From: a virus
Reading direction: 5' to 3' (one strand)
DNA: 64,000 nucleotides
Virus record (IMG/VR): IMGVR_UViG_3300047548_000930
Coordinates: 3,258 to 67,257 of that record
In this document: one piece after another, positions 25,676-44,408 of the stretch
How the letters are laid out: the number at the start of each line of letters is the position of its first letter
Position numbering within the stretch: the first letter of the stretch is position 1
Position numbers and translations under genes: made by a program
Notes under the pieces: model-generated
What the model saw: the letters and a program-made list of their open reading frames with translations, nothing else
What the model was told of the DNA's origin: nothing
Database searches by the model: none

Positions 25676-25677
25676 TT

Positions 25678-27320: not shown

Positions 27321-27751
27321 TATATTTCTTCCCCAGATCCTAAATTAATAAATCCAACAGTATCTACTATCAATGCTTGTTTTCCAGCAATAACAATAAT
27401 ATCACCAACGTCCATACTTGTATGATCTACACCTAAACGGTCAATCATTTCACTTGCTTGATTTTGTGGGCTCCAATTTTCAGCCTGCATCATATTCCAT
27501 ATTTTTTCTGGATTTGTTTCTGCTAAAGTTCCAAGTAATACGTGTGTACGACTTAAATTTTTTAAGTCGGGTAATTTACCAGCAGATTGTAAACTTTTAA
27601 AGCCAAGTTTCATATCGTGACTAAATTCTTCTTTCCAATACCAAATTTGAGTATTACCTGGGGAATAGTTATCTCCAGCGTCCTGTAAACTATTAAAACT
27701 AATAGCTTCCATTAGAATATCTAAATATTTCCTCATAAGCGCATTCGCCAT
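27320..27751 (-). CDS. YodL-like protein with E-terminated leader
   Basis: HTSMDVGDII and VDTVGF; MRKYLDILME leader. Confidence 0.6.
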   Translation of the reverse strand: MANALMRKYLDILMEAISFNSLQDAGDNYSPGNTQIWYWKEEFSHDMKLGFKSLQSAGKLPDLKNLSRTHVLLGTLAETNPEKIWNMMQAENWSPQNQASEMIDRLGVDHTSMDVGDIIVIAGKQALIVDTVGFINLGSGEEI

Positions 27752-28593: not shown

Positions 28594-28977
28594 TTATCTC
28601 CTTACCAATGGTTTCTTAACAAGTGGCTTAGCAACAGTAGCTACTGAACCTGCTCCCATACCACCTGCACTTACGCTTTCTGGCATACCAGCAGTTGGCA
28701 TCATTGCAGTTGTATCTGGCATTGCAGGAGCACCTAGCTTATCGTATTCGAGATAATCTGCTGTTGACTTTATGTAGTCAGCAGCAAGTGTAATCTTGCT
28801 TTGCATCCAACCTTCAATGCCTTCTTCTTCGCTAACGTTCTTAAGTAACTTGTGTAGTCTAATAGCATCATTTGCTAAATGATATAGCTGAGCACGGGCC
28901 ATTTGAACTTCATGGTCACGATCAATGTTCATTGCCTCATCGCTGAGATTTTCTTTAATTTGCTTCTTCTTAGTCAT
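28594..28977 (-). CDS. Hypothetical late protein
   Basis: GGAG SD and TAAATA (29000-29005) upstream; DHEVQMARAQL...GWMQSKITLAADY. Confidence 0.7.
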   Translation of the reverse strand: MTKKKQIKENLSDEAMNIDRDHEVQMARAQLYHLANDAIRLHKLLKNVSEEEGIEGWMQSKITLAADYIKSTADYLEYDKLGAPAMPDTTAMMPTAGMPESVSAGGMGAGSVATVAKPLVKKPLVRR

Positions 28978-29002
28978 AACTGACATCTCCAATATAGTGT
29001 AT

Positions 29003-29573: not shown

Positions 29574-31316
29574 TTAATCCCTTTTACCACGACCAATACC
29601 TTTTGTTGCTGCTTTAAGTTTTGGTTTTCTTGCAGTAAGAGGAGAAGGTTTTCTTTTTGGTAATTCTTTATCAGTTGAAATCTCATCTGGAGTTTCATCT
29701 GGTATTTCATTCCCTGTTGGAACCGGAGCTGATGCAGATTGTAATCTAAAACCCATTCTTCCTTTTTGACCTGTAGCAAAATAGGTTTTATTAAAAAGAA
29801 CTGGTTTTCCAGAAAATTCAGTAGGGAACTTTCCGTAGTAATCAAGTGTCATTGAATCACCACTGACAGTAGTTTTTGTAACTAGCTGTAAGTAGTTGTT
29901 ATTGTTCAATGCTTTTAACATTGCAGCAGAAAAATCTGGGTCATTATTTGCTGCGGTTAATACTTTATTAGCAACGGCTGCAAGCGCATGATAATATATT
30001 CTGTAATCATCTCTTGCAGCCGCATCTGGTCTAATTCCTTGAGATTTAATCAAATCTCTTAATTTTGCATCTTTAACATCTTTAATGCTTCTGCTCTTGC
30101 GTGAAATAGTTAAAACAGCTTGTGCAGTTGCTTCATCTATGATCTTGTACTCAATAGCTGCTTTGAGTATACCAGCGTCAGCTTTGTCCTTTGCTAGGTA
30201 TCTCATTATGCGTACAGCTCGTGGATGTTCTTTTTCAAGTTCAGGTGTAACTTGAGCGTACACGCCAGCTAATGAACTAGCAGCGCCGCCGCCTGTATGC
30301 ATTTTTGTGCTGATTTGTAATTGCTTACCATCAGCGGTTTTAATTAAACTATCCCAAAGTTCTTGTCGTGTATTAGCACTGAATCTAACTTGTCCACCTA
30401 CAAAGCTACCAATGCCTACAGCATTCATAGCTTTTTTAATATCGCCGCCAGTAAACTTACCGCTTAGTAATGCTAATGGTCCTAAGTATTCTGCACCATA
30501 CTTACTAATAACAGTAGCATAATGTGTTCCGTTATTGATTGGTGCAATTTTACCAGACGCAGCAAGATCAACAGCTTGGTCCATGACGTCTGCTAGCTCT
30601 TCATCTGGTGTACCATGTGTAACTGATCTAATTCCGTTTTTAACAGTTTTTGCTAATTCGTTCTTGTTCCTAAAAGTTTCATCCATAATGATGTCACTAG
30701 GTTTAATAGCAATAGATTCGCTGCTTGATCTCTCAGATTTATATTTGTAACCGTTAAGTGTTAACCACTTTCCGTGTATAGTAGTATCTGGAACTTTATC
30801 AATATATCTTACCCAATATTGACTTTTATTATGCGGATCTAATACATGTGCAATAATTGCAGCTCTTGATCTAGCAGTTGGGTTATTATCTAGTTTCTTA
30901 ACAGCGGCTTTTGGAATAGCAGCAGCAATAGCTTTTTCTAACTCTTCTGGTGAGTTAAACGCATTCTTATTCTTTGGGCTTATTACGCTAATTTCTTGTA
31001 CAGTTAGTACGTCTTTTAAGTTTTGTGGATTAACGTATTGATCACCCTGTACACGAGCAGTAACGCCTCTAGACTCATCTACAATAGACTCGGTTAGTCC
31101 AAGGTTCATTAACTTGTTTGGGGTTGAATTCTTAGCAGCAGAGCTGTGTAGTAATGGGGGAGGAAACTTATTTCCAAACTTCTTTGCTTGACGCTCTACT
31201 TCGCCAGGCTTAATATCTTTTGTAACACTCATTGAAAAACGAGGGTCATTCGCTTCTTTTTTATTCTTAGCGATATACCCAACAGCAGCAGTTTCAAATA
31301 AATCTTTGATTTTCAT
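29574..31316 (-). CDS. PD-(D/E)xK nuclease-like protein with MKIKDLFE leader
   Basis: GAEYLGP...LWDSLI...QISTK, a restriction-endonuclease-like motif order. Confidence 0.55.
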   Translation of the reverse strand: MKIKDLFETAAVGYIAKNKKEANDPRFSMSVTKDIKPGEVERQAKKFGNKFPPPLLHSSAAKNSTPNKLMNLGLTESIVDESRGVTARVQGDQYVNPQNLKDVLTVQEISVISPKNKNAFNSPEELEKAIAAAIPKAAVKKLDNNPTARSRAAIIAHVLDPHNKSQYWVRYIDKVPDTTIHGKWLTLNGYKYKSERSSSESIAIKPSDIIMDETFRNKNELAKTVKNGIRSVTHGTPDEELADVMDQAVDLAASGKIAPINNGTHYATVISKYGAEYLGPLALLSGKFTGGDIKKAMNAVGIGSFVGGQVRFSANTRQELWDSLIKTADGKQLQISTKMHTGGGAASSLAGVYAQVTPELEKEHPRAVRIMRYLAKDKADAGILKAAIEYKIIDEATAQAVLTISRKSRSIKDVKDAKLRDLIKSQGIRPDAAARDDYRIYYHALAAVANKVLTAANNDPDFSAAMLKALNNNNYLQLVTKTTVSGDSMTLDYYGKFPTEFSGKPVLFNKTYFATGQKGRMGFRLQSASAPVPTGNEIPDETPDEISTDKELPKRKPSPLTARKPKLKAATKGIGRGKRD

Positions 31317-31338
31317 TACATAAGTTCCTATGTAATAT

Positions 31339-31857
31339 TTATTTCAAAGCAACGGCTAACTGTTTTGCTAGTTCCTCTAAACTGTTTTCATCTGCTTGAT
31401 ATTTGATACCAATTCCACCAGCGTTATTCCAAGCTGTAATATTTTTGCGGAAATCATCAATTAGAATATTAGGAATACCGTTGGATACAGCATATTTGTA
31501 CTTTTCATGTTCAAATATAATGCCATCTGGTTGAACAGTAATATGCTTATTTAACCATTCGCGTTTGCCTTTAATGCTACCTGCACGATCAAAGTTTAAT
31601 GGGCTAGATAATATCTTATATCCACCAGCCATTCCTTTTACCATACGCAATAAACGATTAGCAGTTTTAAATGGGGGTAAATCTCTAAACAAATGATATG
31701 CATCTGTATTTTGGAAAAAAATTTCCCATTGCTGATCAGACATATCATTGTAATGTTCTACGTCGTGAATAGCCCCAACGTGATTAAACAAGTCTGCTAA
31801 TACACCATCCATGTCAACATATACAGTAGGTTTGGTAGTTATTTCAAATATCTTCAT
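31339..31857 (-). CDS. 5'(3')-deoxyribonucleotidase, HAD family
   Basis: YVDMDGVLAD, ILSSP, K..W and ILIDD...NI..W..AGG.GI. Confidence 0.88.
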   Translation of the reverse strand: MKIFEITTKPTVYVDMDGVLADLFNHVGAIHDVEHYNDMSDQQWEIFFQNTDAYHLFRDLPPFKTANRLLRMVKGMAGGYKILSSPLNFDRAGSIKGKREWLNKHITVQPDGIIFEHEKYKYAVSNGIPNILIDDFRKNITAWNNAGGIGIKYQADENSLEELAKQLAVALK

Positions 31858-32380
31858 TTAAATCTTTCTTACAAAGTTCAAGATCAATGTAGTATTCAGA
31901 CATGGAAGAAGCGAGTATTCTAAATCTTTTTTCAAAGATCTCTTTCCATTCCTCAGCTTTTTTAAGACAAATATGTGCGTTCCACCCATTGTTTAAAACT
32001 CTAGTTGCTGGTACTGTTGAAATTGATATGAAAGCATATTTCTCAATAACTCTTTCTAAATCATCTAAAACATTATTGAGACAATCTGGTTCAACATGTT
32101 CAATTACATCAATACAAGCAACCATTTTGCACGGTTTAGGACTAGTGCTCCATTGCGGAATACCTGGTTCATATTTATGAACCACAATATTGGGATTTAA
32201 TTTTTTTAATACCTTTTCTAAATTACCAACTCCTGATCCGTAATCTAATAATTCATTTAAATTATATTTAGATAATATATCAAAGATACGAGGGGCGTAG
32301 TAAACGGAAGCAACACCCCATTGACTAATTGAGTGTTCTTTTTCTAAAACAGATCTATAATAATCTGTTACTAACGTCAT
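31844..32380 (-). CDS. Class I SAM-dependent methyltransferase
   Basis: LLDYGSGVG, YEPG and CIDVIEHVEP. Confidence 0.85.
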   Translation of the reverse strand: MTLVTDYYRSVLEKEHSISQWGVASVYYAPRIFDILSKYNLNELLDYGSGVGNLEKVLKKLNPNIVVHKYEPGIPQWSTSPKPCKMVACIDVIEHVEPDCLNNVLDDLERVIEKYAFISISTVPATRVLNNGWNAHICLKKAEEWKEIFEKRFRILASSMSEYYIDLELCKKDLNEDI

Positions 32381-32523
32381 TGCTCACTTTCCATAGCGCG
32401 ATGCCAATATCGTTTAACAATTTCTTCTTTATCTTTATCTGTATAGCTATCTGGAATATCTTTTCCTTTTAGCTTATTCCAAATAACTTTAGCTGTTTCA
32501 TCGTTAAACTTTTTGTCTGACAT
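32377..32523 (-). CDS. Small hypothetical protein
   Basis: Start at ATG 32523 (TAATG overlap with the polyprotein stop). Confidence 0.6.
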   Translation of the reverse strand: MSDKKFNDETAKVIWNKLKGKDIPDSYTDKDKEEIVKRYWHRAMESEQ

Positions 32524-35500
32524 TAGTCTATCTCCCCGGTATACTCCTGCCCACCTAGTATACACGCTTTTTGCATTTCTGTTAACTCTTTTTTTGGCTC
32601 TTCTTTTTGCCAAACAAATGGTTTATCTGCTGCTTCGATGTATTCTTTTACTGTAGTTGGCTTTTTGATTCTTTCAAATGTATAGGCTACAATGCCTCTA
32701 TCAACTTTCCTGTTTTTAAATTTAAAAGTAGGAATAATTTTTGGTAACATTTTTGTAGATGCATCGTAGAGTTTAACTCGACTTAATTCATTTGCATAAG
32801 AAGCAAAATCAATTTTAGTAATATTTTCGTATTTGCTTAAGTATGTTTTAATTACAAGCATCACAGTAGTTAAGACTTTAAATGCATCTCCAGTGTTAGT
32901 TACTTTAATGGTTCCATCTTCATCATTTTCGGTAAAAGCAGAGAAAGAAATACTAGCCATATTTGGTTTATTTTTATCGTTTACACTAATTAATACTATA
33001 TATTCAACTCCAGCATCTGTAACAAAGTCAGCAGTATATTCTCTCATGTCTCCTTCTGCTGTAAAAGGATATGGTTTGTTAGCAAGTTCAGTTACAACTT
33101 CTTTTGATTCTGCGCTTGGTATTCTAACAGTGCCATCATCTTGATCAACGGCTGCAACAACACGATTATTTTCCCTTCCCCATCGTAGCGCAAGTTGAGT
33201 TGCTTCCTGACGACTACGGGCAGAAACATATGTTAAAACATTATTATCGTGATCATAGACTGTCCAACGACTCCATTGACCTTCGTTTCTACTAGCTACA
33301 GCTTTTATATCGTCTGGTGTTGCTACTCTTGCTCCTCGAGGACCACCATAAACTGGATTATTATTTTCCCACTCAAACCCTTTGCTTAATGCCTCTTTAG
33401 AAGAAATTGCTTTTACAATAGTAAAAGGATTGCCGTTTCTATCAAGTATTGCCCAATCAATTGGTCCTCTTTTCTTTGCTAATCTAAGTTCTTGCTTTGC
33501 TTTTAGTTTCATTACAAGTTCTGCTTTTGATATACTACCACTTGCAAACATACTAAACAATTTAACTACATTATCTTCATTTTCATTATTTTTTGCAGAA
33601 TACAATAACTTATAAAGTTTCTTAGCATACTCTTGCTTTGCTTCATTTGGATCAGCAGCAAGAGCCATTACACGGACATAACGCAATAATGTATTCTTAA
33701 TCTTTTCAATTGCTTCTAGATAGTTACCGCCTGCACTGCGGAACTCAATATAACCTTTCTTAATGTTAACGCTAACGTACTTGTCTCCTCTTGGAACAAG
33801 TGCATCATCAACCATCTTTAATGCTGCTTTATTAAGTCCACTACGTAATGTTTCAAATATAGTTGGCATGTTACGCATTACATATGGGCCAGTTTGTGTT
33901 TGCATCTTGTCAAGTGAGCTACGTGCATAGCCATTACCTAAACGACCAAACTGATCTAGTACGTACTTGTCACCAAGGAACAATATTAGCTTAATGTAAT
34001 CAACGTTTTCCATTTGTGGAATGCTTACACCCATATGGAAACCAGTCGAGCTATCAGTATATGCACCGTGATTATTCATCCAAGTTAGTACTACATCTAG
34101 CTTTTGTAGTGCTTGTTCTAATGGTAGTGGAGGACTTACTAATTCTAATCCGCCTTCCCCTGCACTTTCATCAGCATCGATACTGCTATCAGTTTCTAAA
34201 TACCAAACACCACCTTCTCTGTTGCTCTTAAATGCATGATAGTCCGCGGCAAACTTAACAGGCATACCTACAGCGTTTTTAATTTCATCTGCTACTTCAC
34301 TCATTGCTTGTTCGTCAACTTCGCCGCTGCTAGTTTCTGTCCAGTGTGGCCAATCCCACCCAAATCTCTCTGCCCATTCGCTCATCATTGACAAACTGTT
34401 ATACTCTAAGAAACCTCTTAGATCATCCCACTCAGACATGTAATCATCCCTTAGTGATTGTACAACGTCATCGTAAGTGCTATCTTGGTCTTTAATACTC
34501 TTTTCAATTTCTTCTTCGTCGTAAGTAGTATCTTCTTTATATTTTCTTCTTAATTCTTCTTGCCAATAATCAGATTCGAGTTCATTGTCAAAATCCATCA
34601 TAATGTATTCGTTTAGTTCGTCTGATACTTCTTCAACAGCTCGTTCAATAGTTCTTCTTGCTTCGCTATCCCTAAAGAATGATATTAAGTCATCTTGCAT
34701 AGCACCCATTGTTGAGCTTGTTACACGCTCGTCCATGTCATAATCTGGTTCGCTATCCCCGCCATTCTCATCTGCCATGTTAGGAACAATCATTTCAAAC
34801 TCGAACCCAACAGTAGTTGATTTTGCAATGTCACTTGCGCTAAACTTTTGTAGCGCACCTGGACTCATATCAATTTCAGTTAGACGTTGTTCGTGATTTT
34901 CTAAACTGAACTCTTTGTCCTTCATGTCGTTAAGCATATCGTAGAGTTTGGCAATAAGTCCATTGCTACGTAATGCTTTCCAAGCTAGATTTTCTGCACC
35001 AAATTCACCAGTGCTATGTAATCCAACTTGACGATACTTCTTAAGTGTATGACGTAACTTTACAGCAAGATTATAATCCTGTGCTTTTAGTGCTTTTAAG
35101 ATCAAAGCTTTTAGTACATCATACTTTTCACGAACGTTTGATTCATCAACTTCAACGGTAGTTTGTTCTGGACGCTTAACCCAATCATTGTTCATAATGC
35201 TGTAAATGCCATTGCTTACATGATCTTCGTTTGCATTTTGTACGTATAACTCTACATCAAACCCTTTGATCTTGTAGTCATGCTGTTCATTATACTGGAA
35301 CTTCTTTGCATCAAATAGTTCACGATAAATTGCGTCATCATCTACTTTTGGAAGATCAACAATTAAGTGTAAGTCAATGTCACTGTTTGGTGTGTAGTTG
35401 TATGCGGCATTAGATCCACTAATTGTAATGTCCTTCAAGTTAGGAAGTTCAATTCCTATGAAGTTTTTAAAGTCCTCTGCAATATCCAACAACTTTTGTC

Positions 35501-38500
35501 TTACAACAGGAGACATCCTACCTGCGCTATTAAACAATTGTGGATTTAGTTCATCGTTAATAGTTGGCATAAAGTCATCTGCAGGTGTACCGCCTTCAAC
35601 AAAGTATCGTGTTTGATATTTGCCGTAATTCTTTTCGTCGTGAGCAGTTGCGATGACATACTTGTAACTGTCATCCATCATTAGTATTTTCTTAATACCG
35701 TAACCAAGACCATCACGTTTACGTTTAATTACAAAGTCAACGTTTTCTAAGTTTGAAATTTTATCACCAAATTGCTTTTTTGCATTTGATAAAATATCAA
35801 GCATATCTTTTTGTGACAATGTACGTTCTGCTAATCTTTCAAGCAAGTGTCCTGAAATATATACTGGTCCATCAGCAAAATCAAAGTTGATGTAATACTT
35901 GTCTTTTTTAGGATTTGCTTTTTCAGTAATCTTAGTTGGATTTTCCTTAGCAAGTATTGCCTCATATTCTGCATTTGCTTGTCTAATAGCAGCAAGTGCT
36001 TCTTGTGCTCTTTTTTCACTATCTGCTAACCCTGGCACCGCTTTAGTCATCTTGTCCCAAGGAGACTTAGCTTCACCTAATTTAACTCCCATACCCTTTG
36101 CAGTAAGCATCATGAGTTTCTTAATCCAATCTTCGTCTAACTTACCACCAAAACCTTTCATCCAAGTATCTAGTTTTTGTTGTAATGATAGATTGGGATC
36201 TTTTAGTGTGTTACGCAATGCTGTAAAACTAGCATCAATGCCACCTAAAGCAGCACCGCGTGGAATAGCAATAACATCATAATCAACTTGATCTTGTGTT
36301 CCACCAAACTTTGCAAGTGCAGCAGGATCCTTCATACGCTTTTCTAAAGTATCCATCCACTTCTTAAAACCTTCGTAACGGTCAGTGCCAACCATCAACA
36401 CAATTTTCTTGTAAGTACTATCAGAAGGTAATACTAATTCTTTTTCAATTTTCTTAACTGGACTTGGTACAGTTACACCATCTGGACTTACAATAAGTTG
36501 GAAGATGTTTGCGTACTCGGGATACATTTTCTTCCAAGTAGCCAACTTTACTTCTGGTGGAATTGGATCATCTGGTCCAGTCTTGCTGCTAATGTAAACG
36601 TATGGGTCACCGCCAAGTTTCTTAGCAGCGGCAATAACAGTATCAATTACCTTTTGATGACCAATGTGACCAACAAAACTACCAGCAGTAACAACGGCAG
36701 CTTTGGTTCTATTGCTCCCAGTTGTTGGTGCTTTTTTAATCTTTGCAGCCATTGCACCTTTCATTTCAGTGCTAGTAACTTTTGCAAGCTGACCATTTGG
36801 CATAGCGATAACTAAACCTTCAATAGTGCTGCCAAGCTTGTCTTTACCTTTAATGTTAGGACTGTTAATGATAGCATCGCTAATTGCTTTTCGAGCTGCT
36901 GTTAATATTTCTTTTGCTTTTGCTTTTGCAGGATCATTTTTCTTTTTGCTTGACAGTGCTGTACGTAATGTATCATCCATCCTAGCAATTGGTTCTACAA
37001 TGCTTTTAACATCAATATCACTGTGCTGTAATTCAGTTCCAATTATTTTAATATTTGGTGTACTTTTAGTAATAAGTTTTTCTATGATTGTATCTGGTAA
37101 TCTTTCACCAGTAGAATATGTACTTGCAATAATAGGAACAAGTGTCATTTGCTTGCCAAGTTTTTTAGAATCATACGGTATGTTTACAAACTTAAGTCCA
37201 GTATTAGTCTTTTCAGCCATTGGGTTGTACATCATTTCTGCTTGTACAATTGTATCCTTAGGTAATTCTTTTATAAAATCACTGTTTACAATTAAGTTAA
37301 GTGCTTGATCGTATTTTTCAGCACGAGCAATTTGTTCTTCACTGCCGTTATTATCTCTAGCATATTTTTCAAACATGCCAATATTATCAGCATAAATTGG
37401 ATTTGTAACACGACTTGTCATAAAGAATGGTTTACCGCTTTGATCTTTACCAAAACGTATACCAGCACCATCTACTTTAAGTGTGATTGGAATGTTATCG
37501 AGCGTGCCTCCATTCTTAGCAATTGCATCAACAAATGCCAGGAAGTCTAAATCCTTCATTTCAACAGTTGAACCAGGATTATAAATGTGCTTAATACCTT
37601 GACGCTTATAATCTGGGGCATCTGCTTCTGTAATTGATTCTGCTTTATACTTAGAATAATAATCAGCTAAGGTTTTTGCTAATTCATTTTTGTTAATTGA
37701 AACTTTTAGTGTATCTATAAGTTTATTGATAGCGATTTCTTTTTCACGTTTGTCAGTTGCTGGGTCACCTTTGTATAGTTGCTGAGCAGCAGGGCCAAAC
37801 AACAAAGCCATAAATGCTTGTGTAATTTTGTTTTTATCTTCTGGTGTAAAATATTTGTTAATTAATGCTAATACGCCAACAAAACTGCCTAAATACTTTT
37901 CTTCACCTTTAGTTGGTTTACGACCAATTAAAAGTGTAAACATGCCTGAAATATCTGTTACATATTCGCTTTCACTTGCTGGAACTTCTTTATAAATTCC
38001 AAGTCCATCATCGGCTACTGCTGGTTTCTTTGTTTTGGGATCAATTACTGGTTCAAACTTTTGTCGAACACCGCCAGTTACAGCAAAGGCCAAATCACTT
38101 GCTGTTACTTTCTTTAGCTTAGTCTTCATTTGAATGTAACGTTCTTTAGCATCTTTGTGTGTTAAAGAACGTAGTAAGTACTTGTGGAACACGCCTTTAA
38201 TGCCTGCGCTTAAGTCTTCCCAAGCACTGCTATGACTAAACTTGCTCCACTCAGTTGGACTACCTTTATCATAGTCTACAAGTTCCATATCAATCTGTAC
38301 GTTTACAGCAGGATCTTTAAATTGCCACAAGCTAATAAATGTATCCTGTCCTGGGTTTGGTTTAAAACCAATTAACTTTGCTGGACCAAATTGTTTACCT
38401 GTTGCCCTAGTTAAAAAGTCCTTAGCTTTATCGGCTAGGTTCTTATCAACCATAGTGTCAATATCACCAACACTTGACTTTACTTTAGTAAACTGATCAT

Positions 38501-38744
38501 CTGGAATTTTTACATTGAAAAAGTGGAAGGCGCTACCACTTAAAAACTCTTTGTTTTTAATTAATTCTGGGCTCCAAAGAGGAACACCGTATGCTTTATT
38601 AAATGCACTGTTAATGATTTGCAGTGCTTTATCTATCTCAGCAACTACTGCGCTACGGGAAATCTTGTTTAAGTCTAGACGTTGAGCGGCAATGCCGTCT
38701 ATCTCAACATTGCCGCCTTCGTTAAGTATTGTTTTATTGATCAT
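32523..38744 (-). CDS. 2073-aa multidomain protein: Pol-beta NTase, ligase-like, HIGH NTase, small RNase-like, second Pol-beta NTase, amidoligase, C-terminal domain
   Basis: SGS..GDIDT..QID; KVDG..EGLVI..AKV; GHIGH..VGTDR; H-x2-ER-x2-ER; SGS..SDIDLH..VELY; GFEFE..ELVSP..GFH..IEFR. Confidence 0.85.
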   Translation of the reverse strand: MINKTILNEGGNVEIDGIAAQRLDLNKISRSAVVAEIDKALQIINSAFNKAYGVPLWSPELIKNKEFLSGSAFHFFNVKIPDDQFTKVKSSVGDIDTMVDKNLADKAKDFLTRATGKQFGPAKLIGFKPNPGQDTFISLWQFKDPAVNVQIDMELVDYDKGSPTEWSKFSHSSAWEDLSAGIKGVFHKYLLRSLTHKDAKERYIQMKTKLKKVTASDLAFAVTGGVRQKFEPVIDPKTKKPAVADDGLGIYKEVPASESEYVTDISGMFTLLIGRKPTKGEEKYLGSFVGVLALINKYFTPEDKNKITQAFMALLFGPAAQQLYKGDPATDKREKEIAINKLIDTLKVSINKNELAKTLADYYSKYKAESITEADAPDYKRQGIKHIYNPGSTVEMKDLDFLAFVDAIAKNGGTLDNIPITLKVDGAGIRFGKDQSGKPFFMTSRVTNPIYADNIGMFEKYARDNNGSEEQIARAEKYDQALNLIVNSDFIKELPKDTIVQAEMMYNPMAEKTNTGLKFVNIPYDSKKLGKQMTLVPIIASTYSTGERLPDTIIEKLITKSTPNIKIIGTELQHSDIDVKSIVEPIARMDDTLRTALSSKKKNDPAKAKAKEILTAARKAISDAIINSPNIKGKDKLGSTIEGLVIAMPNGQLAKVTSTEMKGAMAAKIKKAPTTGSNRTKAAVVTAGSFVGHIGHQKVIDTVIAAAKKLGGDPYVYISSKTGPDDPIPPEVKLATWKKMYPEYANIFQLIVSPDGVTVPSPVKKIEKELVLPSDSTYKKIVLMVGTDRYEGFKKWMDTLEKRMKDPAALAKFGGTQDQVDYDVIAIPRGAALGGIDASFTALRNTLKDPNLSLQQKLDTWMKGFGGKLDEDWIKKLMMLTAKGMGVKLGEAKSPWDKMTKAVPGLADSEKRAQEALAAIRQANAEYEAILAKENPTKITEKANPKKDKYYINFDFADGPVYISGHLLERLAERTLSQKDMLDILSNAKKQFGDKISNLENVDFVIKRKRDGLGYGIKKILMMDDSYKYVIATAHDEKNYGKYQTRYFVEGGTPADDFMPTINDELNPQLFNSAGRMSPVVRQKLLDIAEDFKNFIGIELPNLKDITISGSNAAYNYTPNSDIDLHLIVDLPKVDDDAIYRELFDAKKFQYNEQHDYKIKGFDVELYVQNANEDHVSNGIYSIMNNDWVKRPEQTTVEVDESNVREKYDVLKALILKALKAQDYNLAVKLRHTLKKYRQVGLHSTGEFGAENLAWKALRSNGLIAKLYDMLNDMKDKEFSLENHEQRLTEIDMSPGALQKFSASDIAKSTTVGFEFEMIVPNMADENGGDSEPDYDMDERVTSSTMGAMQDDLISFFRDSEARRTIERAVEEVSDELNEYIMMDFDNELESDYWQEELRRKYKEDTTYDEEEIEKSIKDQDSTYDDVVQSLRDDYMSEWDDLRGFLEYNSLSMMSEWAERFGWDWPHWTETSSGEVDEQAMSEVADEIKNAVGMPVKFAADYHAFKSNREGGVWYLETDSSIDADESAGEGGLELVSPPLPLEQALQKLDVVLTWMNNHGAYTDSSTGFHMGVSIPQMENVDYIKLILFLGDKYVLDQFGRLGNGYARSSLDKMQTQTGPYVMRNMPTIFETLRSGLNKAALKMVDDALVPRGDKYVSVNIKKGYIEFRSAGGNYLEAIEKIKNTLLRYVRVMALAADPNEAKQEYAKKLYKLLYSAKNNENEDNVVKLFSMFASGSISKAELVMKLKAKQELRLAKKRGPIDWAILDRNGNPFTIVKAISSKEALSKGFEWENNNPVYGGPRGARVATPDDIKAVASRNEGQWSRWTVYDHDNNVLTYVSARSRQEATQLALRWGRENNRVVAAVDQDDGTVRIPSAESKEVVTELANKPYPFTAEGDMREYTADFVTDAGVEYIVLISVNDKNKPNMASISFSAFTENDEDGTIKVTNTGDAFKVLTTVMLVIKTYLSKYENITKIDFASYANELSRVKLYDASTKMLPKIIPTFKFKNRKVDRGIVAYTFERIKKPTTVKEYIEAADKPFVWQKEEPKKELTEMQKACILGGQEYTGEID

Positions 38745-38782
38745 TTAATAGCCCATTAATGTATATAGACTATTTATTTGTG

Positions 38783-39226
38783 TTAAATGTTTTCAAGTAA
38801 CCAAATGTAAATTGGTGTGCTGAACTTAATTTCCCAGCGACCGTTATATCCTAAATTAATACAGTTTTTAACTAACTCTGGAGCACTATCTCCGTAAATG
38901 TCTTTACGGGGATAATAATTTGAATGTGTATGCTTTAAATATCCAATATTAATCTCATCAAATGAGATTTCGTCAATGTTGAGAAGCTGATCTTTAACAA
39001 TTTTATCATTTTCAACAACAGTTTGATATTTGTCCTTATCGTAAAGTTCAATAGCTAATGTATGGGAATCTTCTGTTAGTTCTCCACTCCATTTAATTTC
39101 TTTTTGATCAGCAATTTCACCGTCAAAAATTAATTGTGCATCTACATAAACTTTTGCTTTCGGTGCATTTTTCCAAAAGTTGCTGGATAAAGTTACTACA
39201 ATATCAACTGTTTCAAGATTTGACAT
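38783..39226 (-). CDS. Hypothetical beta-rich protein (paralog of 17761-18234)
   Basis: DQLLNIDEI and GYNGRWEIKFSTPIYIWL. Confidence 0.7.
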   Translation of the reverse strand: MSNLETVDIVVTLSSNFWKNAPKAKVYVDAQLIFDGEIADQKEIKWSGELTEDSHTLAIELYDKDKYQTVVENDKIVKDQLLNIDEISFDEINIGYLKHTHSNYYPRKDIYGDSAPELVKNCINLGYNGRWEIKFSTPIYIWLLENI

Positions 39227-40046
39227 CTGAGTTGCTTTCTAATTCAATTTTTTCGTAAGCTTTAAGTTGCTCACTATTGTCTTTTAGATTAGCTGTCCAC
39301 TCATCTGCAAGTTTCTTAATAACATTAACGTCACCTTGGAATGTGTATGTACCACAATGATCTAATTTAATCTCAGTATCGACCCAAACTGGGATATTAA
39401 GTTTTTCACGCACACGTTTACAGAACGTCCAATCCTCAGATAGATAATGACCGTTTTCATCAATCATTGTATCAAACAATGCATACATATGTGGTTCATA
39501 CTGAGGTCCAAGATTGAGACTGTCTTTATATTTTAACTCAGGCATTGCCTCAATGAGCTTTTCAATTACATCACGCTTAATAAGCATAAAACCTGTACCT
39601 GATGTAGAAACTTCAAGTAACGATCCTACGCGCCTTCCCCCTGGCAATGAGTTAATGACATAACGAATTGGTAACCCTTTCATAGGGTAAAGTCCACACA
39701 CAACACCGGCTTCATATAATACCATACGCAGAACTGATTCAGCATCCCATTTAATATCTGCATCAATCCACATAAGGTGTGTTGCTTTTGAATTAGCTAA
39801 GAATTTAGAAACAAGATTGTTTCGTCCACGAGGAATGAGGCTTTCATTAACCATAGTATCTACACTAAAGTTAATGCCATATTTCATAGCAAGCATAGCA
39901 AATCTCATATAGCTACCAAAGCATGGTTCCATAATGTTTCCACCATAGCAGGGTGTACAAAAATGAATATGAACTTTTTGTAGTTTTTCGAGGGCTTGCT
40001 TTTGTGCTTCCTCGGCTGTTAAATTATTAGTTGCTTCTTCTGCCAT
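39213..40046 (-). CDS. GT-A fold glycosyltransferase-like protein
   Basis: TPCYGG, ESLIPRGRN, WIDADI (DxD), GTGFMLIKR and LSEDWTFC. Confidence 0.82.
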   Translation of the reverse strand: MAEEATNNLTAEEAQKQALEKLQKVHIHFCTPCYGGNIMEPCFGSYMRFAMLAMKYGINFSVDTMVNESLIPRGRNNLVSKFLANSKATHLMWIDADIKWDAESVLRMVLYEAGVVCGLYPMKGLPIRYVINSLPGGRRVGSLLEVSTSGTGFMLIKRDVIEKLIEAMPELKYKDSLNLGPQYEPHMYALFDTMIDENGHYLSEDWTFCKRVREKLNIPVWVDTEIKLDHCGTYTFQGDVNVIKKLADEWTANLKDNSEQLKAYEKIELESNSDVKS

Positions 40047-40056
40047 ATTTTACCTG

Positions 40057-40215
40057 TTATTCAATCTCAATTAGTGTATCGTTGCCAATCATTTCTTGAA
40101 TAACTGCTACTAGCGTAGCAAGCATTTCATCGTGCATGATTGGATAATTTTCTTCGCTATCACGTACTAACTTACTAAGTGTTATAGTTATCTTCTGTTC
40201 GTTTATCTTCGCCAT
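40057..40215 (-). CDS. 52-aa hypothetical protein (not in ORF track)
   Basis: MAKINEQKITITLSKLVRD...LIEIE; GGAG SD and TAAATA upstream. Confidence 0.7.
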   Translation of the reverse strand: MAKINEQKITITLSKLVRDSEENYPIMHDEMLATLVAVIQEMIGNDTLIEIE

Positions 40216-40573
40216 GGATTTCTCCCTCCACGGTATTTAGCGTAGTTAACTGCTCTGTTTTTACTTTAGGCTTACGTCCACGCTTTTTACCTGCAACCTT
40301 CTTGCCGCCATCTGCTTTAATATCAAAGACGCTGGCAAGTCTAATTGGATCCATGCCATCAACTTCCTTAACATCATTAATATGCATGGTAAACTTCTTA
40401 CCTAGCCTATCTCTACACTTAAAAATTACACCATCGAAATCTTCCATCATTAGCTCTAGTGGAAGAGTTTGTAGTGTTTGGCCAAGACCCGACGTTTCTG
40501 TATAACCATACAGCAGCGTACCAGGTTTCATAATGCCACGATTAATTAGAGCTTCAGCTAGTTGTCTTTTCAT
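40175..40573 (-). CDS. Hypothetical protein with basic GKKRGRKPK tail
   Basis: VDGMDPIRLA; operon-coupled. Confidence 0.7.
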   Translation of the reverse strand: MKRQLAEALINRGIMKPGTLLYGYTETSGLGQTLQTLPLELMMEDFDGVIFKCRDRLGKKFTMHINDVKEVDGMDPIRLASVFDIKADGGKKVAGKKRGRKPKVKTEQLTTLNTVEGEIHGEDKRTEDNYNT

Positions 40574-41249
40574 TTAGTTCCTCTAAGGTTGTAAACTTTT
40601 CAATTCTTTTTATGAATAGAGGGTTGATTAATGCGATAATGCACAGCACGTCCTCACTATTGGTGTAAAAGTATGGTGTACCCCAATAGTTGCCTCTCTT
40701 AATTCGTTCAGTAGTTCTATCATCAAATGTAGAAGTATTTGGATCATTATTAATTTGATCCACAATAGCACCTACTGCGTCTAGACCTATCTTTTGAATT
40801 GTTCTGTAATTGGTTGCCCAGTGTATACGATAACGCCACTTTTTGTGGGGTAAACGCTTAACAACAGAAGTAACTGCTCTAGGTAATTCTGGTTTAATAG
40901 CCGATTCCTCTAAAACAGTTTCTTCCATTTTGCCAACCTCAATATTGTTCCACTCTTTTAAGGAAGCAACTGAGATCTTCTCTAATACTGTAACAATGTC
41001 GTGACAGTAAATGGCTAAGGTATCGTACTCGGCACGTGTTCTAAACAAAGATGAGTCGAGGTTGTTATACAATGGCATTGTAACTTTTCGACTCATATTA
41101 CGAAGGCGCGCCCAGTCCCTCACACGTTGATTATTTTCTAATCTAATAATGTGAGGGAATTCACTGTAATACTTTTTGTAGTTAGGCTTGAGGGAGATTT
41201 TAACTCCCTCAGAGCGCAACTGATCCATTAACGCGGATAATTCCATCAT
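40554..41249 (-). CDS. Hypothetical protein
   Basis: Long ORF directly downstream of clpA. Confidence 0.7.
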   Translation of the reverse strand: MMELSALMDQLRSEGVKISLKPNYKKYYSEFPHIIRLENNQRVRDWARLRNMSRKVTMPLYNNLDSSLFRTRAEYDTLAIYCHDIVTVLEKISVASLKEWNNIEVGKMEETVLEESAIKPELPRAVTSVVKRLPHKKWRYRIHWATNYRTIQKIGLDAVGAIVDQINNDPNTSTFDDRTTERIKRGNYWGTPYFYTNSEDVLCIIALINPLFIKRIEKFTTLEELNEKTTS

Positions 41250-43479
41250 CTCCTACCACTTGATTATCGTCATGTTGTACAAATTCAATTTTGCCATCCA
41301 CGAGCTTCGCTACAAGTGTAGCACCTGCAGGGATTTTGTCAAATAGTATTTTGCGGGAAAGTGGAACCTTTACCAATTCATTAATCTTACGACTAATAGG
41401 ACGGGCACCCATCTTTGCATCGTAGCCCTTCTCAATAATGAGATCGACAACTGGCTCTTCCAAACGTAGCTTAATGCCACGATCACCAAGTAGTTCGTTA
41501 ATCTCAACAATGAACTTAGCTACAATCTTGCGTAGGCTCATTTGATCTAGCTTACCAAACTTAACAATCCCATCAAGACGGTTGCGGAATTCTGGGCGGA
41601 AGTACTGTTGCACCGCTTTATCATCCTCTCCCTTTTTCTCAGGAGATCCAAAACCGATGCTGTTTCTTTCGCCTTCCTGAGCACCCAGATTGCTTGTCAT
41701 AATAACAAGACAATTACGTGCATCAGCCTTCTTGCCGTTTGAACCAGTTACCATACCTTCGTCCATGAGTGCAAGTAATGCAGTCATAACGTCGGGGTGT
41801 GCCTTTTCAACTTCATCAAATAGGATGATTGCATTTGGATTCTTAGTAATATCACTAATAAGCAGGCCGCCGCCTAGGTTACCATCATCGTAGCCAACAT
41901 ATCCTGGAGGTGCACCAATTAGACGTGCAACTGAGTGCTTTTCTTGGTATTCGCCCATGTCATAGCGTAGGAGCTTCATGCCCATATTCTCACCAAGCAG
42001 CTTGGCAAGTTCAGTCTTACCAGTACCAGTTGGACCTAGGAAGAGGAACACGCCCATTGGCTTGTTAATGCTCTTAAGTCCTGCCTTAGCAACGTATACC
42101 TTTTCAAGTACATTGTCAACAGCATTGTCCTGGCCAAACAGTTTAGACTTAATTGCGCTTTCAAGATCAACAGCAACTTCATCGTTCTTAGCATCAATTT
42201 GGCTAATTGGAATCTTAGTTGCAGTGCTAATCTCGTCAACAATCATGCCGCGTGTAACAGCAAAGTTCTTGTGATCTTTTACTTTTTGCCTTGCACAAGC
42301 AGAGTCAATTAGATCAAGTGCCTTATCTGGAAGCTTCTTATCGCTTTGATAACGAACGGAAAGATCAACTGCTGCCTCAACTGCATCATCAGTAATAGTT
42401 GCAGTGTGGAACTTCTCAAAGTAAGGACGTAGCCCCTTTAGAATTTCCTTAGCATGTGAAGGGGTTGGTTCATCAACAGTAAGCCTGTGGAAACGACGCA
42501 TTAGCGCACGATCCTTTTCAAAGCTTGTGCTGTATTCTTCCCATGTAGTTGAAGCAATTACCTTGATCTTGCCCTTAGCAAGTGCAGGCTTAATCATGTT
42601 AGAGAAGTCTACATCACTGTGACCGCCTGAGCCAGCACCGCGCATCTGATGTGCTTCGTCTACGAAGAGGATTGCCTTACCCTTTTTAGATAGTGCATTA
42701 ATTACTTCACGTAGCTTTTCTTCAAACTCGCCACGGAACTTTGAACCAGCAAGTAATGTACCAATGTCGAGATTGTATACACGCCAGTCCTTAAGGAACT
42801 CTGGCACGTTGCCGTTTACAATGTTAAGTGCAAGCCCTTCGGCAATTGCAGTCTTACCAACACCCGGGTCACCAACCATTAGTACGTTATTCTTATTACG
42901 GCGCGCAAGAATCTGAGCAATTTCAATTAACTCTACCTCACGACCAATAACTGGATCAATTTCACCTTCTTCTGCCTTTTCATTAAGGTCAGTACAGTAC
43001 TCTTCAAGTACTGCATCCGCGGCAGACATGTCAGATCCACTGCCTTTGGCATTGCGGTTATTGTGTGCTGTTACGATTTTAGCTTTATCCATACCATACT
43101 TGGTAAAATAATATGCTGCCCAACTATCTGTTTCATTGCTGAGACTTAGATAAATGTCTACTGGCTGCATTACTTGGCGATTGCTAAAAAGAACCTGTGT
43201 AAATGCACGATTGAATACACGCTCTAGCGCATGTGTTTTATTAGGCTGCTCGACGCTATCACCTGATAAGTATGTTTGTTCTGACAAATGACGGGTAATT
43301 TCTTCAACCAGTTCAGGCTGATCAACTCCAGCATCTATGAGAATGTTTTTAAATCCATCATTGACAACAAGTGCCAACGCTAAGTGTTCGGTTGTAACCA
43401 ATTTATGATTAGCAGCTTTGGCGATTTCAATTGCATGTGCAACGATACGGTCAATTTCTGGATTATTTTGAAGTGCCAA
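41209..43479 (-). CDS. clpA: ATP-dependent Clp protease ATP-binding subunit ClpA
   Basis: Clp N-domain, two Walker A motifs ([16 protein letters not shown]), [12 protein letters not shown] ClpP-docking loop, no M-domain; TTG start after GGAG. Confidence 0.93.
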
Positions 43480-43553
43480 CTGTTTTCTCCATTTAGTTGC
43501 TTACAGTATAATATAGTGCAGATTCTGTAAGTGTCAAGTGTTATATTGCACTA

Positions 43554-44408
43554 TTAAGTATTTAAACCGTTTTGAATTGAAACAATTTGTTTTACCAATT
43601 CAATCTGCTCGTTCGTTAGATTAGTTGGAACAGATACATTGATATGTAAGTATTGAGCACCAATGAACTTATTACGGTTCATGCTTGGCAAACCTTCGCT
43701 TGGTAAACGTAGTACTGTTCCATTTTGGCTTCCCGCTGGTATTGTTACCTTAACCCTCTTACCACGAATAGTTACGAACTCAATAGTCGATCCAAGTGTC
43801 GCTTTAAAACAATCTATGGTAATATTAGAATGTAAGTCCTCGTTAACACGATTGAACCTTTCAGTTGGTAATACTGTCACTTCAACCATTAGATCACCAG
43901 CTGGTTGATCTGTGTAAGTGTTTTGTCCCATACCTCTGTATGTAATAACAGCACCATCATGTATACCAGGTGGAATTTTAATTTCTACTTGCTTATTGCC
44001 AGTGCCGGCATTAAGGTCAATAGTTTTAGTTTGTTCTTGTAATATTGATTCTAGTGGAATTGATATACGAATACGTATATTGCTATTTCTTGGTTTACGT
44101 CTTCCGCCTGGAAATCCTGCAGCTTGTGCGAAGATGTTCATAAAATCTTCGTTTGAGAATATATCTTCAAAGTGGAAATGTGTACCACTACGATATGCGT
44201 TTGCTCTTGGGTCAAACCCGCCCATGTCATACTGTGCTTTCTTATTAGGGTCACTTAGTATGTCATTTGCTTGATTTATTTCTTTAAACTTTTCTGGATC
44301 ACCGCCAAGATCAGGGTGATACTTTTTAGCTAGTTTACGATAAGCTGATTTAATTTCATCAGCAGTTGCAGTACGGCTAACGCCAAGTATTTCATAAGGA
44401 TCACGCAT
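43554..44408 (-). CDS. dnaJ: Class B J-domain protein (DnaJ/CbpA-like, no Zn finger)
   Basis: J-domain with HPD, G/F region and DnaJ C-terminal domain. Confidence 0.9.
   Translation of the reverse strand: MRDPYEILGVSRTATADEIKSAYRKLAKKYHPDLGGDPEKFKEINQANDILSDPNKKAQYDMGGFDPRANAYRSGTHFHFEDIFSNEDFMNIFAQAAGFPGGRRKPRNSNIRIRISIPLESILQEQTKTIDLNAGTGNKQVEIKIPPGIHDGAVITYRGMGQNTYTDQPAGDLMVEVTVLPTERFNRVNEDLHSNITIDCFKATLGSTIEFVTIRGKRVKVTIPAGSQNGTVLRLPSEGLPSMNRNKFIGAQYLHINVSVPTNLTNEQIELVKQIVSIQNGLNT

What the first reader, a model, noticed from the sequence alone, without database searches (positions are those of the whole stretch)
32523..38744. 2073-aa multi-enzyme protein punctuated by prohead-protease-like sites: candidate phage polyprotein
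Seen, with approximate coordinates: Pol-beta NTase (38720-37630); ligase-like KVDG/EGLV domain (37620-36740); HIGH nucleotidyltransferase (36710-36075); H-x2-ER-x2-ER small domain (35920-35600); second Pol-beta NTase (35590-34900); amidoligase with an acidic insert (34870-33500); C-terminal domain (33085-32640). The boundaries coincide with ILNE/G, SITE/A, KLGE/A, KITE/K, FVE/G, RLTE/I, VVTE/L, YIE/A and ELTE/M, the same pattern as the cargo leaders. Established: polyvalent proteins of phages fuse such conflict domains. Inference: it is packaged as one chain, cut into about seven enzymes, and injected as a kit for nucleotide, RNA-end or protein modification against host defence.
Basis: partly seen in the sequence, partly recalled or inferred. 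Interest (0 to 1): 0.85.

Follow-up and report, generated by a model that had tools for sequence, protein, structure and literature searches.

The report
Head-loaded, protease-cut phage enzyme polyprotein
An uncultured giant T4-like phage encodes one 2073-residue chain of seven enzyme-like domains whose flexible joints carry the cutting motif of the T4-type head protease, so it is probably loaded into the capsid, cut into separate enzymes and injected with the DNA, although nobody has measured cutting or packaging.

Summary
The domains are a Pol-beta-like NTase, an RNA-ligase-like KxDG domain, a PPAT/NMNAT-like HIGH domain, a small DUF4258-like domain, an ANT-like NTase, a glutamine-synthetase-like amidoligase and a GNAT-like DUF6934 domain.

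All nine proposed Glu sites lie in, or within 2 residues of, AlphaFold segments with pLDDT under 50. In 100 aligned relatives [LIVM]-x-E is 4-15 times denser in the leader and linkers than in folded parts, and control motifs are not.

Modules that are fused in relatives are free genes in this window, each with a short leader. In both forms the module begins right after Glu. A related record (DNA polymerase 65% identical) encodes a T4 gp21-type prohead protease, whose known specificity is L/I-x-E.

Best reading (0.65): a capsid-targeted polyvalent cargo protein cut by the prohead protease into about six folded products. Packaging, cleavage, injection and substrates are inferred. Corrections: domains 2 and 3 have no site between them, and two sites are non-canonical here.

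It is a new variant of two known kinds: T4 CTS/gp21-processed internal proteins, and polyvalent proteins. This scan noted the same family before on other DNA.

The parts
38771..38778 (-). AATAAATA, a late-promoter-like motif 26 nt upstream of the start codon
   Evidence: There are 10 copies in the window, which is the chance number, but 7 lie within 35 nt upstream of a start on the same strand. Three of those precede operons of leader-bearing genes. The T4 late-promoter consensus is recalled, not tested.
38718..38744 (-). Leader, residues 1-9 (MINKTILNE), ending in I-L-N-E before GGN: candidate capsid-targeting propeptide
   Evidence: pLDDT under 50 for residues 1-10. 97 of 100 relatives have [LIVM]xE here; P3 is L in 77, I in 16 and V in 4. 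The leaderless BUDD homologue starts M-GGN.
37626..38717 (-). D1, residues 10-373: Pol-beta-like nucleotidyltransferase (phrog_19290), ending in linker SITE373|A
   Evidence: The linker 368-375 has pLDDT under 50. 100 of 100 relatives have [LIVM]xE in this length-variable linker.
36741..37625 (-). D2, residues 374-668: ATP-dependent RNA/DNA-ligase-like covalent nucleotidyltransferase (KVDG, EGLV)
   Evidence: Invariant K423 D425 G426, E503, E642 G643 V645, K655. VIA Z 11.6 to Naegleria RNA ligase over model 376-668. No Pfam hit.
36072..36740 (-). D3, residues 669-891: HIGH-motif adenylyltransferase of PPAT/NMNAT/NadD fold, ending in KLGE891|A. There is no Glu site between D2 and D3.
   Evidence: Z 12-13.4. 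The core alignments of 99 homologues end at residues 885-895. 98 of 100 have [LIVM]xE within 55 aa after the core.
35922..36071 (-). Residues 892-941: helical spacer peptide of 50 aa between sites E891 and KITE941|K
   Evidence: helices at 895-933; residues 931-947 have pLDDT under 50.
35595..35921 (-). D4, residues 942-1050: small alpha/beta domain (GHLLERLAER), weakly DUF4258-like, ending in FVE1050|G
   Evidence: DUF4258 E 0.033, below the cut-off. Close relatives lack it or carry a different domain here.
34875..35594 (-). D5, residues 1051-1290: Pol-beta NTase of aminoglycoside-NTase type (phrog_36119), ending in RLTE1290|I
   Evidence: It is N-terminal behind the leader MNIHE in 13 of 13 proteins (P0108-P0121 without P0116). 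All 22 internal copies in A2 have E 4-9 residues upstream.
33465..34874 (-). D6, residues 1291-1760: glutamine-synthetase-like amidoligase (PF12224) with an acidic helical insert
   Evidence: 20 of 20 domain starts examined have L-x-E two residues upstream of MSP/MTP.
33087..33464 (-). D7, residues 1761-1886: two small alpha/beta repeats of unknown function, ending in VVTE1886|L
   Evidence: two similar runs of strands and helices; residues 1872-1886 have pLDDT under 50; only a weak DUF4288 hit.
32634..33086 (-). D8, residues 1887-2037: DUF6934, GNAT-like fold
   Evidence: 27.5 bits, cut-off 27. SpeG and AAC(6') at prob 1.0, 137 columns. Assigning these hits to D8 is my inference from size and topology.
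32526..32633 (-). C-terminal tail, residues 2038-2073, with ELTE2056|M. Relatives keep it whatever domain precedes it.
   Evidence: 18 of 121 proteins end in this peptide. Other subclades have their own conserved C-terminal peptide behind [LIV]xE.

Best explanation
The gene encodes a capsid-addressed polyvalent cargo protein of a T4-like jumbo phage.

Inferred sequence of events:
1. The gene is expressed late.
2. The 9-residue leader, and perhaps the conserved C-terminal tail, dock the chain into the scaffolding core of the prohead.
3. The gp21-type prohead protease cuts after Glu at the exposed (L/I/V)-x-E joints.
4. The head then holds about six separate folded products, which are ejected with the DNA:
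   - a Pol-beta-like NTase;
   - an RNA-ligase-like plus PPAT/NMNAT-like two-domain enzyme;
   - a small DUF4258-like domain;
   - an ANT-like NTase;
   - a GS-like amidoligase with two small repeats;
   - a GNAT-like domain.

They would act at once on nucleic-acid ends, nucleotide cofactors or proteins of the host.

Shown here: the domain folds, the position and conservation of the motif, the exchange of modules at the motif, and a gp21-type protease in a relative. Inferred: targeting, cleavage, ejection and substrates.
For: 1. Disordered joints. The only segments of residues 1-890 with pLDDT under 50 are 1-10 and 368-375, which are the two proposed sites. In residues 891-2073, the segments 891-896, 931-947, 1052-1056, 1278-1289, 1872-1886 and 2039-2054 hold or abut the other seven sites. 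Enrichment: P 0.005 to 0.0007.

2. Family-level motif density. In 100 aligned core sequences, [LIVM]xE occurs per 100 aa at 9.9 in the leader, 2.83 in linker A and 4.35 after the core. In folded parts it is 0.65, against 1.17 expected from composition. It is present in 97, 100 and 98 of 100 sequences respectively. The controls Ex[LIVM], [LIVM]xD, [LIVM]xK and [AGS]xE are not enriched in this way. The linkers vary in length and sequence while the motif stays.

3. Specificity. P3 at the leader site is L 77, I 16, V 4 of 100. This matches the published gp21 motif L/I-X-E and the 10-residue CTS (PMC9026906, passages read).

4. Module exchange at Glu.
   - Window gene 25484-25675 (leader MLIKELTE|NFADG) equals modules that follow ..NE|NFADG in 9 relatives.
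   - Window gene 29574-31316 (MKIKDLFE|TAAVGY) equals modules that follow E (D in two) in 24 relatives.
   - Window gene 53750-54784 (MRIHELFE|GGW) equals P0099 964-1294, which follows ..VTE|GGW (46% identity over 334 aa).
   - D5 and D6 always follow such a site.

5. Free forms. Campylobacter phage CP21_014 is a free D1 with the leader MKLSE|LILILE|GGN. Xanthomonas phage BUDD has D1, D2 and D3 as separate neighbouring genes, and its D1 starts M-GGN.

6. Protease. Record G002 carries a core homologue of at least 1475 aa and a DNA polymerase 65% identical to the window's. It encodes Peptidase_S77 (8.6e-26) between portal and scaffold/capsid genes. The scaffold has about 25 [LIVM]xE motifs.

7. 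Relatives' C-terminal modules include lysozyme, SLT/LysM and Hydrolase_2 domains (precomputed Pfam). Such domains fit ejected proteins.

8. A late-promoter-like AATAAATA lies upstream of the gene.
Against: - No virion proteome, N-terminal data or expression data exist for this phage or any relative.
- The window's own 67-kb record (CheckV 19% complete) and the 83%-identical relative G001 hold no Peptidase_S77 match. The protease is seen only in a relative whose core is 42% identical.
- The gene lies among nucleotide-metabolism and chaperone genes, not in a head module.
- 15 of the 22 [LIV]xE motifs lie inside folded parts, most in helices. Conditional on Glu, the excess of L/I/V at P3 in the linkers of this one protein is weak (odds ratio 2.7, P 0.06).
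- FVE1050 has F at P3, and its P3-P2 residues sit in the last strand of D4. YIE2037 is non-canonical.
- AATAAATA is not more frequent in the window than chance (10 against 10.05).
- The sequences in the family counts are related to one another, so the counts are not independent events.
Confidence: 0.65

Rival explanations
1. An uncleaved cytoplasmic multi-enzyme protein. The chain works as one scaffolded assembly line inside the infected cell. The conserved hydrophobic-x-Glu in the linkers is a docking or flexibility motif, not a cleavage site.
For: The gene lies among nucleotide-metabolism genes. The D2-D3 linker has no site. BUDD encodes leaderless D1, D2 and D3, which probably act in the cytoplasm. 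No protease is present in the record.
Against: It does not explain why unrelated modules begin right after Glu both as free leader-bearing genes and as fused units. It does not explain why P3 is L/I/V as in gp21 sites, with Asp not substituting for Glu. It does not explain why the motif is depleted in folded parts (0.65 against 1.17 expected).
Confidence: 0.12
2. Packaged and cut, but the products serve the virion (head-core filler, DNA-condensing or assembly enzymes) or act in the producer cell, rather than being injected counter-defence enzymes.
For: T4 core proteins are cut at the same motif and mostly leave the head (PMC9026906). The 50-aa helical spacer and the conserved tail look like scaffold-type peptides.
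Against: The catalytic motifs of D1, D2, D3 and D5 are invariant across 36-48 sequences. This argues for active enzymes. Muralytic modules in relatives fit ejection.
Confidence: 0.12
3. Cut in the cytoplasm by another protease (host or phage) without packaging: a viral polyprotein in the strict sense.
For: A ClpA/ClpB-type unfoldase and a DnaJ-like gene lie 2.5-5 kb upstream. No zincin motif or peptidase domain occurs in the chain itself.
Against: Clp-type machines degrade processively rather than cutting at defined sites (general knowledge). The leader grammar matches the T4 capsid-targeting rule, and the lineage has a gp21-type protease.
Confidence: 0.07

Closest known systems
Phage T4 internal proteins IPI-III and Alt: capsid-targeting sequence plus gp21 processing (PMC9026906 and PMC3012670, passages read)
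   Same: A short N-terminal propeptide ending in L/I-x-E. Unrelated cargo proteins share only the leader. Cleavage comes after Glu by a Peptidase_S77-type protease. Alt is trimmed at both ends, and this family has conserved C-terminal peptides behind such sites.
   Different: T4 cargo proteins are single-module. Here up to eight modules sit in one 234-kDa chain with internal sites, and modules move between free and fused forms. Nothing has been measured for this phage.
Polyvalent proteins of phages and conjugative elements (Iyer et al. 2017, PMC5512222, passages read)
   Same: Many unrelated conflict-type domains in one polypeptide. Architectures are mosaic among orthologues. Lysozyme, ParB, GNAT and NTase domains occur. 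The proteins are predicted to be packaged and injected.
   Different: That paper ascribes processing to a built-in zincin MPTase. This protein has no HExxH and no peptidase domain; the linkers carry prohead-protease motifs instead. [quoted passage not shown] Its supplementary lists could not be read.
Processed head and ejection proteins of phiKZ, 201phi2-1 and SPN3US (PMC5694885 and PMC9026906, passages read)
   Same: Giant phages with a diverged gp21 homologue cut many head proteins after Glu at a short motif. Propeptides carry several redundant sites.
   Different: Their motif is A/S/G-x-E, and [AGS]xE is not enriched here. They have long propeptides rather than chains of enzyme modules.
RNA ligase with an associated Pol-beta NTase (RlaP) repair pairs of jumbo phages (Iyer et al. 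2021, PMC7824862, passage read)
   Same: A Pol-beta NTase is coupled to an RNA-ligase-type enzyme. D1, D2 and D3 are also neighbouring genes in phage BUDD.
   Different: No Pfam RlaP or RNA-ligase family hit was found. The similarity is at fold level only, and the third, PPAT/NMNAT-like partner is not part of the described pair.

Membership tests
T4-type CTS-bearing, gp21-processed head cargo | N-terminal propeptide of about 10 residues ending in L/I-x-E | tested here: met
   MINKTILNE|GGN. Residues 1-10 have pLDDT under 50. 97 of 100 relatives have the motif, with P3 L 77, I 16, V 4. The rule is taken from PMC9026906.
T4-type CTS-bearing, gp21-processed head cargo | The phage encodes a gp21-type (Peptidase_S77) prohead protease | tested here: inconclusive
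   No match in the window's 67-kb record (19% complete) or in G001.
T4-type CTS-bearing, gp21-processed head cargo | The protein is present in virions in processed form | not testable with these tools
   The phage is uncultured and no proteome exists.
Polyvalent proteins (Iyer 2017) | Several functionally unrelated conflict-type domains in one phage polypeptide, with mosaic architectures among orthologues | tested here: met
   Seven enzyme-like domains. Relatives gain, lose or swap ParB, lysozyme, zeta-kinase, deaminase, GNAT and DUF6934 modules.
Polyvalent proteins (Iyer 2017) | Built-in zincin MPTase as the processing hub (frequent, not universal) | tested here: not met
   No HExxH. No peptidase family in Pfam or PHROGs.
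ATP-dependent ligase / covalent nucleotidyltransferase superfamily (D2) | Motif I KxDG with the catalytic Lys, plus the downstream acidic, EG and K motifs (motif names recalled) | tested here: met
   K423 D425 G426, E503, E642 G643 V645 and K655 are invariant in 48 sequences.
ATP-dependent ligase / covalent nucleotidyltransferase superfamily (D2) | Nucleotidyltransferase-domain fold | tested here: met
   Naegleria RNA ligase 6vt1_A: Z 11.6, rmsd 3.2, 189 aligned, model 376-668. T4 Rnl1: Foldseek prob 1.0. No sequence-family hit.
HIGH-motif (cytidylyltransferase-like) nucleotidyltransferases (D3) | HxGH motif and a Rossmann-type PPAT/NMNAT fold | tested here: met
   H693-I-G-H696 is invariant. 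PPAT 3l92: Z 13.4, rmsd 2.8, 151 aligned. NMNAT 1m8j: Z 12.2. Pfam FAD_syn scores only 20.6 bits, below its cut-off of 27.
Amidoligase_2 (PF12224) (D6) | Pfam score over the cut-off and a glutamine-synthetase-type catalytic fold | tested here: met
   44 bits against a cut-off of 22. 4bax_A: Z 12.2, rmsd 3.8, 194 aligned, model 405-812, which is residues 1295-1702.
Pol-beta nucleotidyltransferase superfamily (D1, D5) | G-S ... D-x-D plus a third acidic residue | tested here: met
   D1: G70 S71, D94 D96, D152 invariant. D5: S219 G220 invariant; S231 D232 I233 D234 nearly invariant, in the numbering of the second half. Pfam NTP_transf_2 is below its cut-off (19.5 against 21), so Pfam family membership itself is not met.
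DUF4258 / BECR-like RNase (D4) | Pfam score over the cut-off | tested here: not met
   14.9 bits against a cut-off of 25, covering 27 of 71 profile positions. The fold was not searched alone.

The most novel reading that the evidence does not exclude
T4-like jumbo phages run a plug-in cargo system. Any folded module flanked by (L/I/V)-x-Glu can be moved between a free gene with a capsid-targeting leader and a place in a giant chain, and the prohead protease restores the same mature proteins in either case.

This protein joins two widespread cargo backbones: NTase, RNA-ligase-like and adenylyltransferase; and NTase and amidoligase. An RNA-end repair set and a ligating or tagging set would then be delivered together, in fixed proportion, with subclade-specific C-terminal peptides as a second address.
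Probability: 0.45. Interest if true: 0.8.

Novelty: new variant of a known kind. Interest (0 to 1): 0.62.

Why it matters
If true, it joins two bodies of knowledge: T4 capsid targeting with gp21 processing, and polyvalent proteins. The result would be one mechanism by which uncultured giant phages preload a changeable set of enzymes into the head.

- It gives a simple sequence rule for predicting injected proteins in metagenomic phage genomes: a leader, Glu joints and a conserved tail.
- It points to an unstudied three-enzyme core found in more than 100 protein clusters.
- It suggests natural, protease-releasable fusion points for loading foreign proteins into T4-type capsids.

Tried and rejected
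Searches that found no close characterised relative:
- Megablast of 30000-42000 against the phage collection: no match.
- tblastn of the protein against 50,697 phage records: 87 records matched, none covering more than 26% of it.
- phmmer of the protein and profile searches of A1 and A2 against PDB sequences: only a 30-residue HIGH-motif match to RibF plus low-complexity hits for A1, and nothing for A2. Domain calls beyond Pfam therefore rest on folds.

Limits of the fold searches:
- VIA lists were filled by D3 and D2 for model 1 and by D6 for model 2.
- Assigning the GNAT hits to D8 and the AAD(9) hits to D5 is my inference from size and topology.

Ideas rejected:
- I asked whether window gene 53750-54784 (which starts E|GGW) is a paralogue of D1 (E|GGN). 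hhalign gave probability 0.3%, so it is not.
- TATAAATA as the late promoter: 1 match in the window against 7.3 expected. The looser AATAAATA occurs at the chance number, so only its position upstream of starts is suggestive.
- A zincin peptidase inside the chain: none.
- tRNA and Rfam scans: nothing.

Literature. Searches for a printed description of capsid-targeted polyproteins with prohead-protease linkers gave none.

Not used: complex prediction, sequencing-run tools, the second and third homologue searches, and the representative search.

Full report
**The object.** Window 32523-38744 (minus strand) is one open frame of 2073 codons. The window is part of a 67-kb viral record that CheckV rates 19% complete, which implies a genome of roughly 350 kb. 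It also encodes a T4-type DNA polymerase, a virion structural protein, a deoxyribonucleotidase, a methyltransferase, a ClpA/ClpB-type unfoldase and a DnaJ-like protein. There are no tRNA genes in the window and no Rfam matches at 30000-42000. Full-length collinear homologues of 74% identity exist on other contigs (P0002, P0004), so the long frame is not an assembly artefact.

**Domains.** Two AlphaFold models were made from alignments of 48 and 36 sequences: residues 1-890 (mean pLDDT 87.6) and 891-2073 (mean pLDDT 74.8).
- D1 (10-373) has invariant G70-S71, D94-x-D96 and D152. Foldseek gives Pol beta at prob 0.96. Its nearest Atlas clusters are viral only.
- D2 (374-668) has invariant K423-x-D425-G426, E503, E642-G643-x-V645 and K655. 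It aligns over model 376-668 with the Naegleria RNA ligase (Z 11.6, rmsd 3.2, 189 residues).
- D3 (669-891) has the invariant HIGH motif and a PPAT/NMNAT/NadD fold (Z 12-13.4).
- D4 (942-1050) is a small alpha/beta domain with only a sub-threshold DUF4258 hit.
- D5 (1051-1290) is a Pol-beta NTase of aminoglycoside-NTase type.
- D6 (1291-1760) is Amidoligase_2 (44 bits, cut-off 22) with a glutamine-synthetase fold (Z 12.2).
- D7 (1761-1886) is two small repeats of unknown function.
- D8 (1887-2037) is DUF6934. GNAT-type fold hits probably belong to it.

Sequence searches of PDB gave almost nothing, so these domains are very divergent.

**The sites in this protein.** The nine motifs end at E9, E373, E891, E941, E1050, E1290, E1886, E2037 and E2056. 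In the second model the low segments, in protein numbering, are 891-896, 931-947, 1052-1056, 1278-1289, 1872-1886 and 2039-2054, plus three short loops and the C-terminal end. Every proposed site therefore lies in, or within two residues of, a predicted flexible joint.

The protein has 22 [LIV]xE motifs. Five fall in the 109 low-confidence residues (P 0.005) and seven within two residues of them (P 0.0007). The total number is not above shuffles (22 against 28.9 +/- 4.6). The other 15 lie in folded parts, mostly helices. Three weak points remain. FVE1050 and YIE2037 are not canonical. P3-P2 of the first sit in the last strand of D4. Conditional on Glu, the L/I/V excess in this one protein is only borderline (P 0.06). 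The D2-D3 linker (661-680, pLDDT 64-73) has no motif.

**The family.** A database search returned 175 proteins at E <= 0.001 among 8000 scored candidates, of which 120 were listed. Of the listed proteins, 99 share residues 1 to about 888 and then diverge into different C-terminal extensions. By precomputed Pfam these include ParB, lysozyme, SLT/LysM, Hydrolase_2, zeta-toxin-like kinase, deaminase, GNAT and DUF6934. A second backbone, D5 plus D6, stands at the N-terminus of 13 further proteins (P0108-P0121 without P0116) behind the leader MNIHE. The query is a fusion of both backbones.

In the 100-sequence core alignment the two columns with the most conserved [LIVM]xE are E9 (97%) and E373 (70%; the rest are shifted by one column). 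The second sits in a linker that varies from 8 to about 45 residues. Motif density per 100 residues is 9.9 in the leader, 2.83 in linker A and 4.35 in the 55 residues after the core. In folded parts it is 0.65, against 1.17 expected from composition. Reverse or altered motifs (Ex[LIVM], [LIVM]xD, [LIVM]xK, [AGS]xE) show no such pattern. P3 at the leader site is L 77, I 16, V 4. These sequences are related, so the counts are not independent. The argument rests on the motif persisting in linkers that have otherwise diverged completely.

**Module exchange.** BLAST of the window's other ORFs against the 120 homologues showed that five window genes are modules of relatives' chains.
- 25484-25675 (MLIKELTE|NFADG...) matches terminal or internal modules that follow ..NE|NFADG in 9 proteins.
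- 29574-31316 (MKIKDLFE|TAAVGY...) matches a module that follows Glu (Asp in two) in 24 proteins.
- 53750-54784 (MRIHELFE|GGW...) matches P0099 964-1294 after ..VTE|GGW (46% identity over 334 residues).
- 28594-28986 and the C-terminus of 26589-27320 match further modules.

D5 is preceded by hydrophobic-x-E in all 22 internal copies in alignment A2. D6 has L-x-E two residues before its MSP/MTP start in 20 of 20 starts, examined in 20 of the 121 proteins. Indels between close relatives fall near residues 891, 941-946, 1050-1056, 1290-1303 and 1884.

Outside the lineage, Campylobacter phage CP21_014 is a free D1 with the leader MKLSE|LILILE|GGN. Xanthomonas phage BUDD encodes D1, D2 and D3 as separate adjacent genes. 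Its D1 starts M-GGN and ends where the polyprotein's linker begins. So the Glu is not part of the D1 fold.

**The protease.** Peptidase_S77 (the T4 gp21 family) was sought in five records. It is absent from the window's record and from G001, and present in G002 (87 bits). G002 also holds a core homologue of at least 1475 aa and a DNA polymerase 65% identical to the window's. Around the protease lie portal, scaffold-like and major capsid genes. The scaffold-like protein has about 25 [LIVM]xE in 362 residues, and the capsid protein has three in its first 42 residues. Published work states that gp21 cuts after Glu at L/I-X-E, that the first 10 residues of IPIII suffice for capsid targeting, that Asp at position 10 blocks processing, and that Alt is trimmed at both ends (PMC9026906, passages read; PMC3012670, passages read).

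**Other context.** AATAAATA lies 26 nt upstream of the start codon. The window has 10 copies, which is the chance number. Seven lie within 35 nt upstream of starts, including the operons of leader-bearing genes at 27751, 28986 and 31316. The C-termini of the family are conserved peptides specific to each subclade, each behind [LIV]xE.

**Interpretation.** The best reading is a capsid-addressed polyvalent protein cut by the prohead protease into about six folded products plus peptides, which are then ejected with the DNA. The substrates are unknown. D1, D2 and D3 are linked by fusion and by gene neighbourhood. They recall the Pol-beta NTase plus RNA ligase repair pairs described for jumbo phages (PMC7824862, passage read), though no family-level match supports membership.

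Compared with the polyvalent proteins of Iyer et al. 2017 (PMC5512222, passages read), this chain lacks the built-in metallopeptidase to which that paper ascribes processing. It carries head-protease motifs instead. Five literature searches found no printed description of this arrangement. Supplements could not be read.

**Earlier notes of this scan.** After I had reached this reading, look-ups showed that the scan had noted the same protein family on other DNA, including the 2135-aa relative, and many similar 'cargo polyprotein' notes. These are unchecked AI notes and are not counted as evidence.

**Verdict.** It is a new variant of known kinds.

Noticed in passing
window 41209-44408 (-): A ClpA/ClpB-type double AAA+ unfoldase (Clp_N, AAA, AAA_lid_9, AAA_2, ClpB_D2-small) and a DnaJ-like protein (J domain plus DnaJ_C) lie 2.5-5 kb upstream of the polyprotein. 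They might help handle large cargo or virion proteins.
   Followed up: partly
window 25059-27751 (-): An operon behind an AATAAATA motif encodes five proteins with Glu-terminated leaders. One is a GH19 muralytic enzyme (25678-26589, MLIKELTE). Another is a 63-aa protein with the same leader that equals the 'NFADG' end module of relatives' polyproteins.
   Followed up: partly
window 29574-31316 (-): A 580-aa protein with no family hit starts MKIKDLFE|TAAVGY..DPRFSMS. This N-terminal peptide recurs right after Glu (Asp in two) inside 24 relatives' chains. It may be a shared small module or tag of unknown role.
   Followed up: partly
P0001-P0121 C-termini (window 32526-32633 for this protein): The polyproteins end in conserved peptides specific to each subclade, each behind [LIV]xE. 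Examples are ..ELTE|MQKACILGG..; ..VTE|S.DYLEE|K; and ..PVSE|DVENIMGALIE|NLIRK. The peptide is independent of the preceding domain and may be a second, C-terminal addressing propeptide.
   Followed up: partly
L009 2998-6347 (Xanthomonas phage BUDD): D1, an unknown 333-aa protein, D2 and D3 are four consecutive separate genes without leaders. This is a split form of the fused core and argues that the three enzymes work together.
   Followed up: partly
window 33087-33464 (-), residues 1761-1886: Two tandem alpha/beta repeats of about 50 residues follow the amidoligase. Similar units end P0119-P0121. Their function is unknown and there is only a weak DUF4288 hit.
   Followed up: no
window 26589-27320 (-) C-terminus: A Cys-containing basic motif (..CWKGY..) at the end of this leader-bearing protein recurs near the C-terminus of many relatives' polyproteins.
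   Followed up: no
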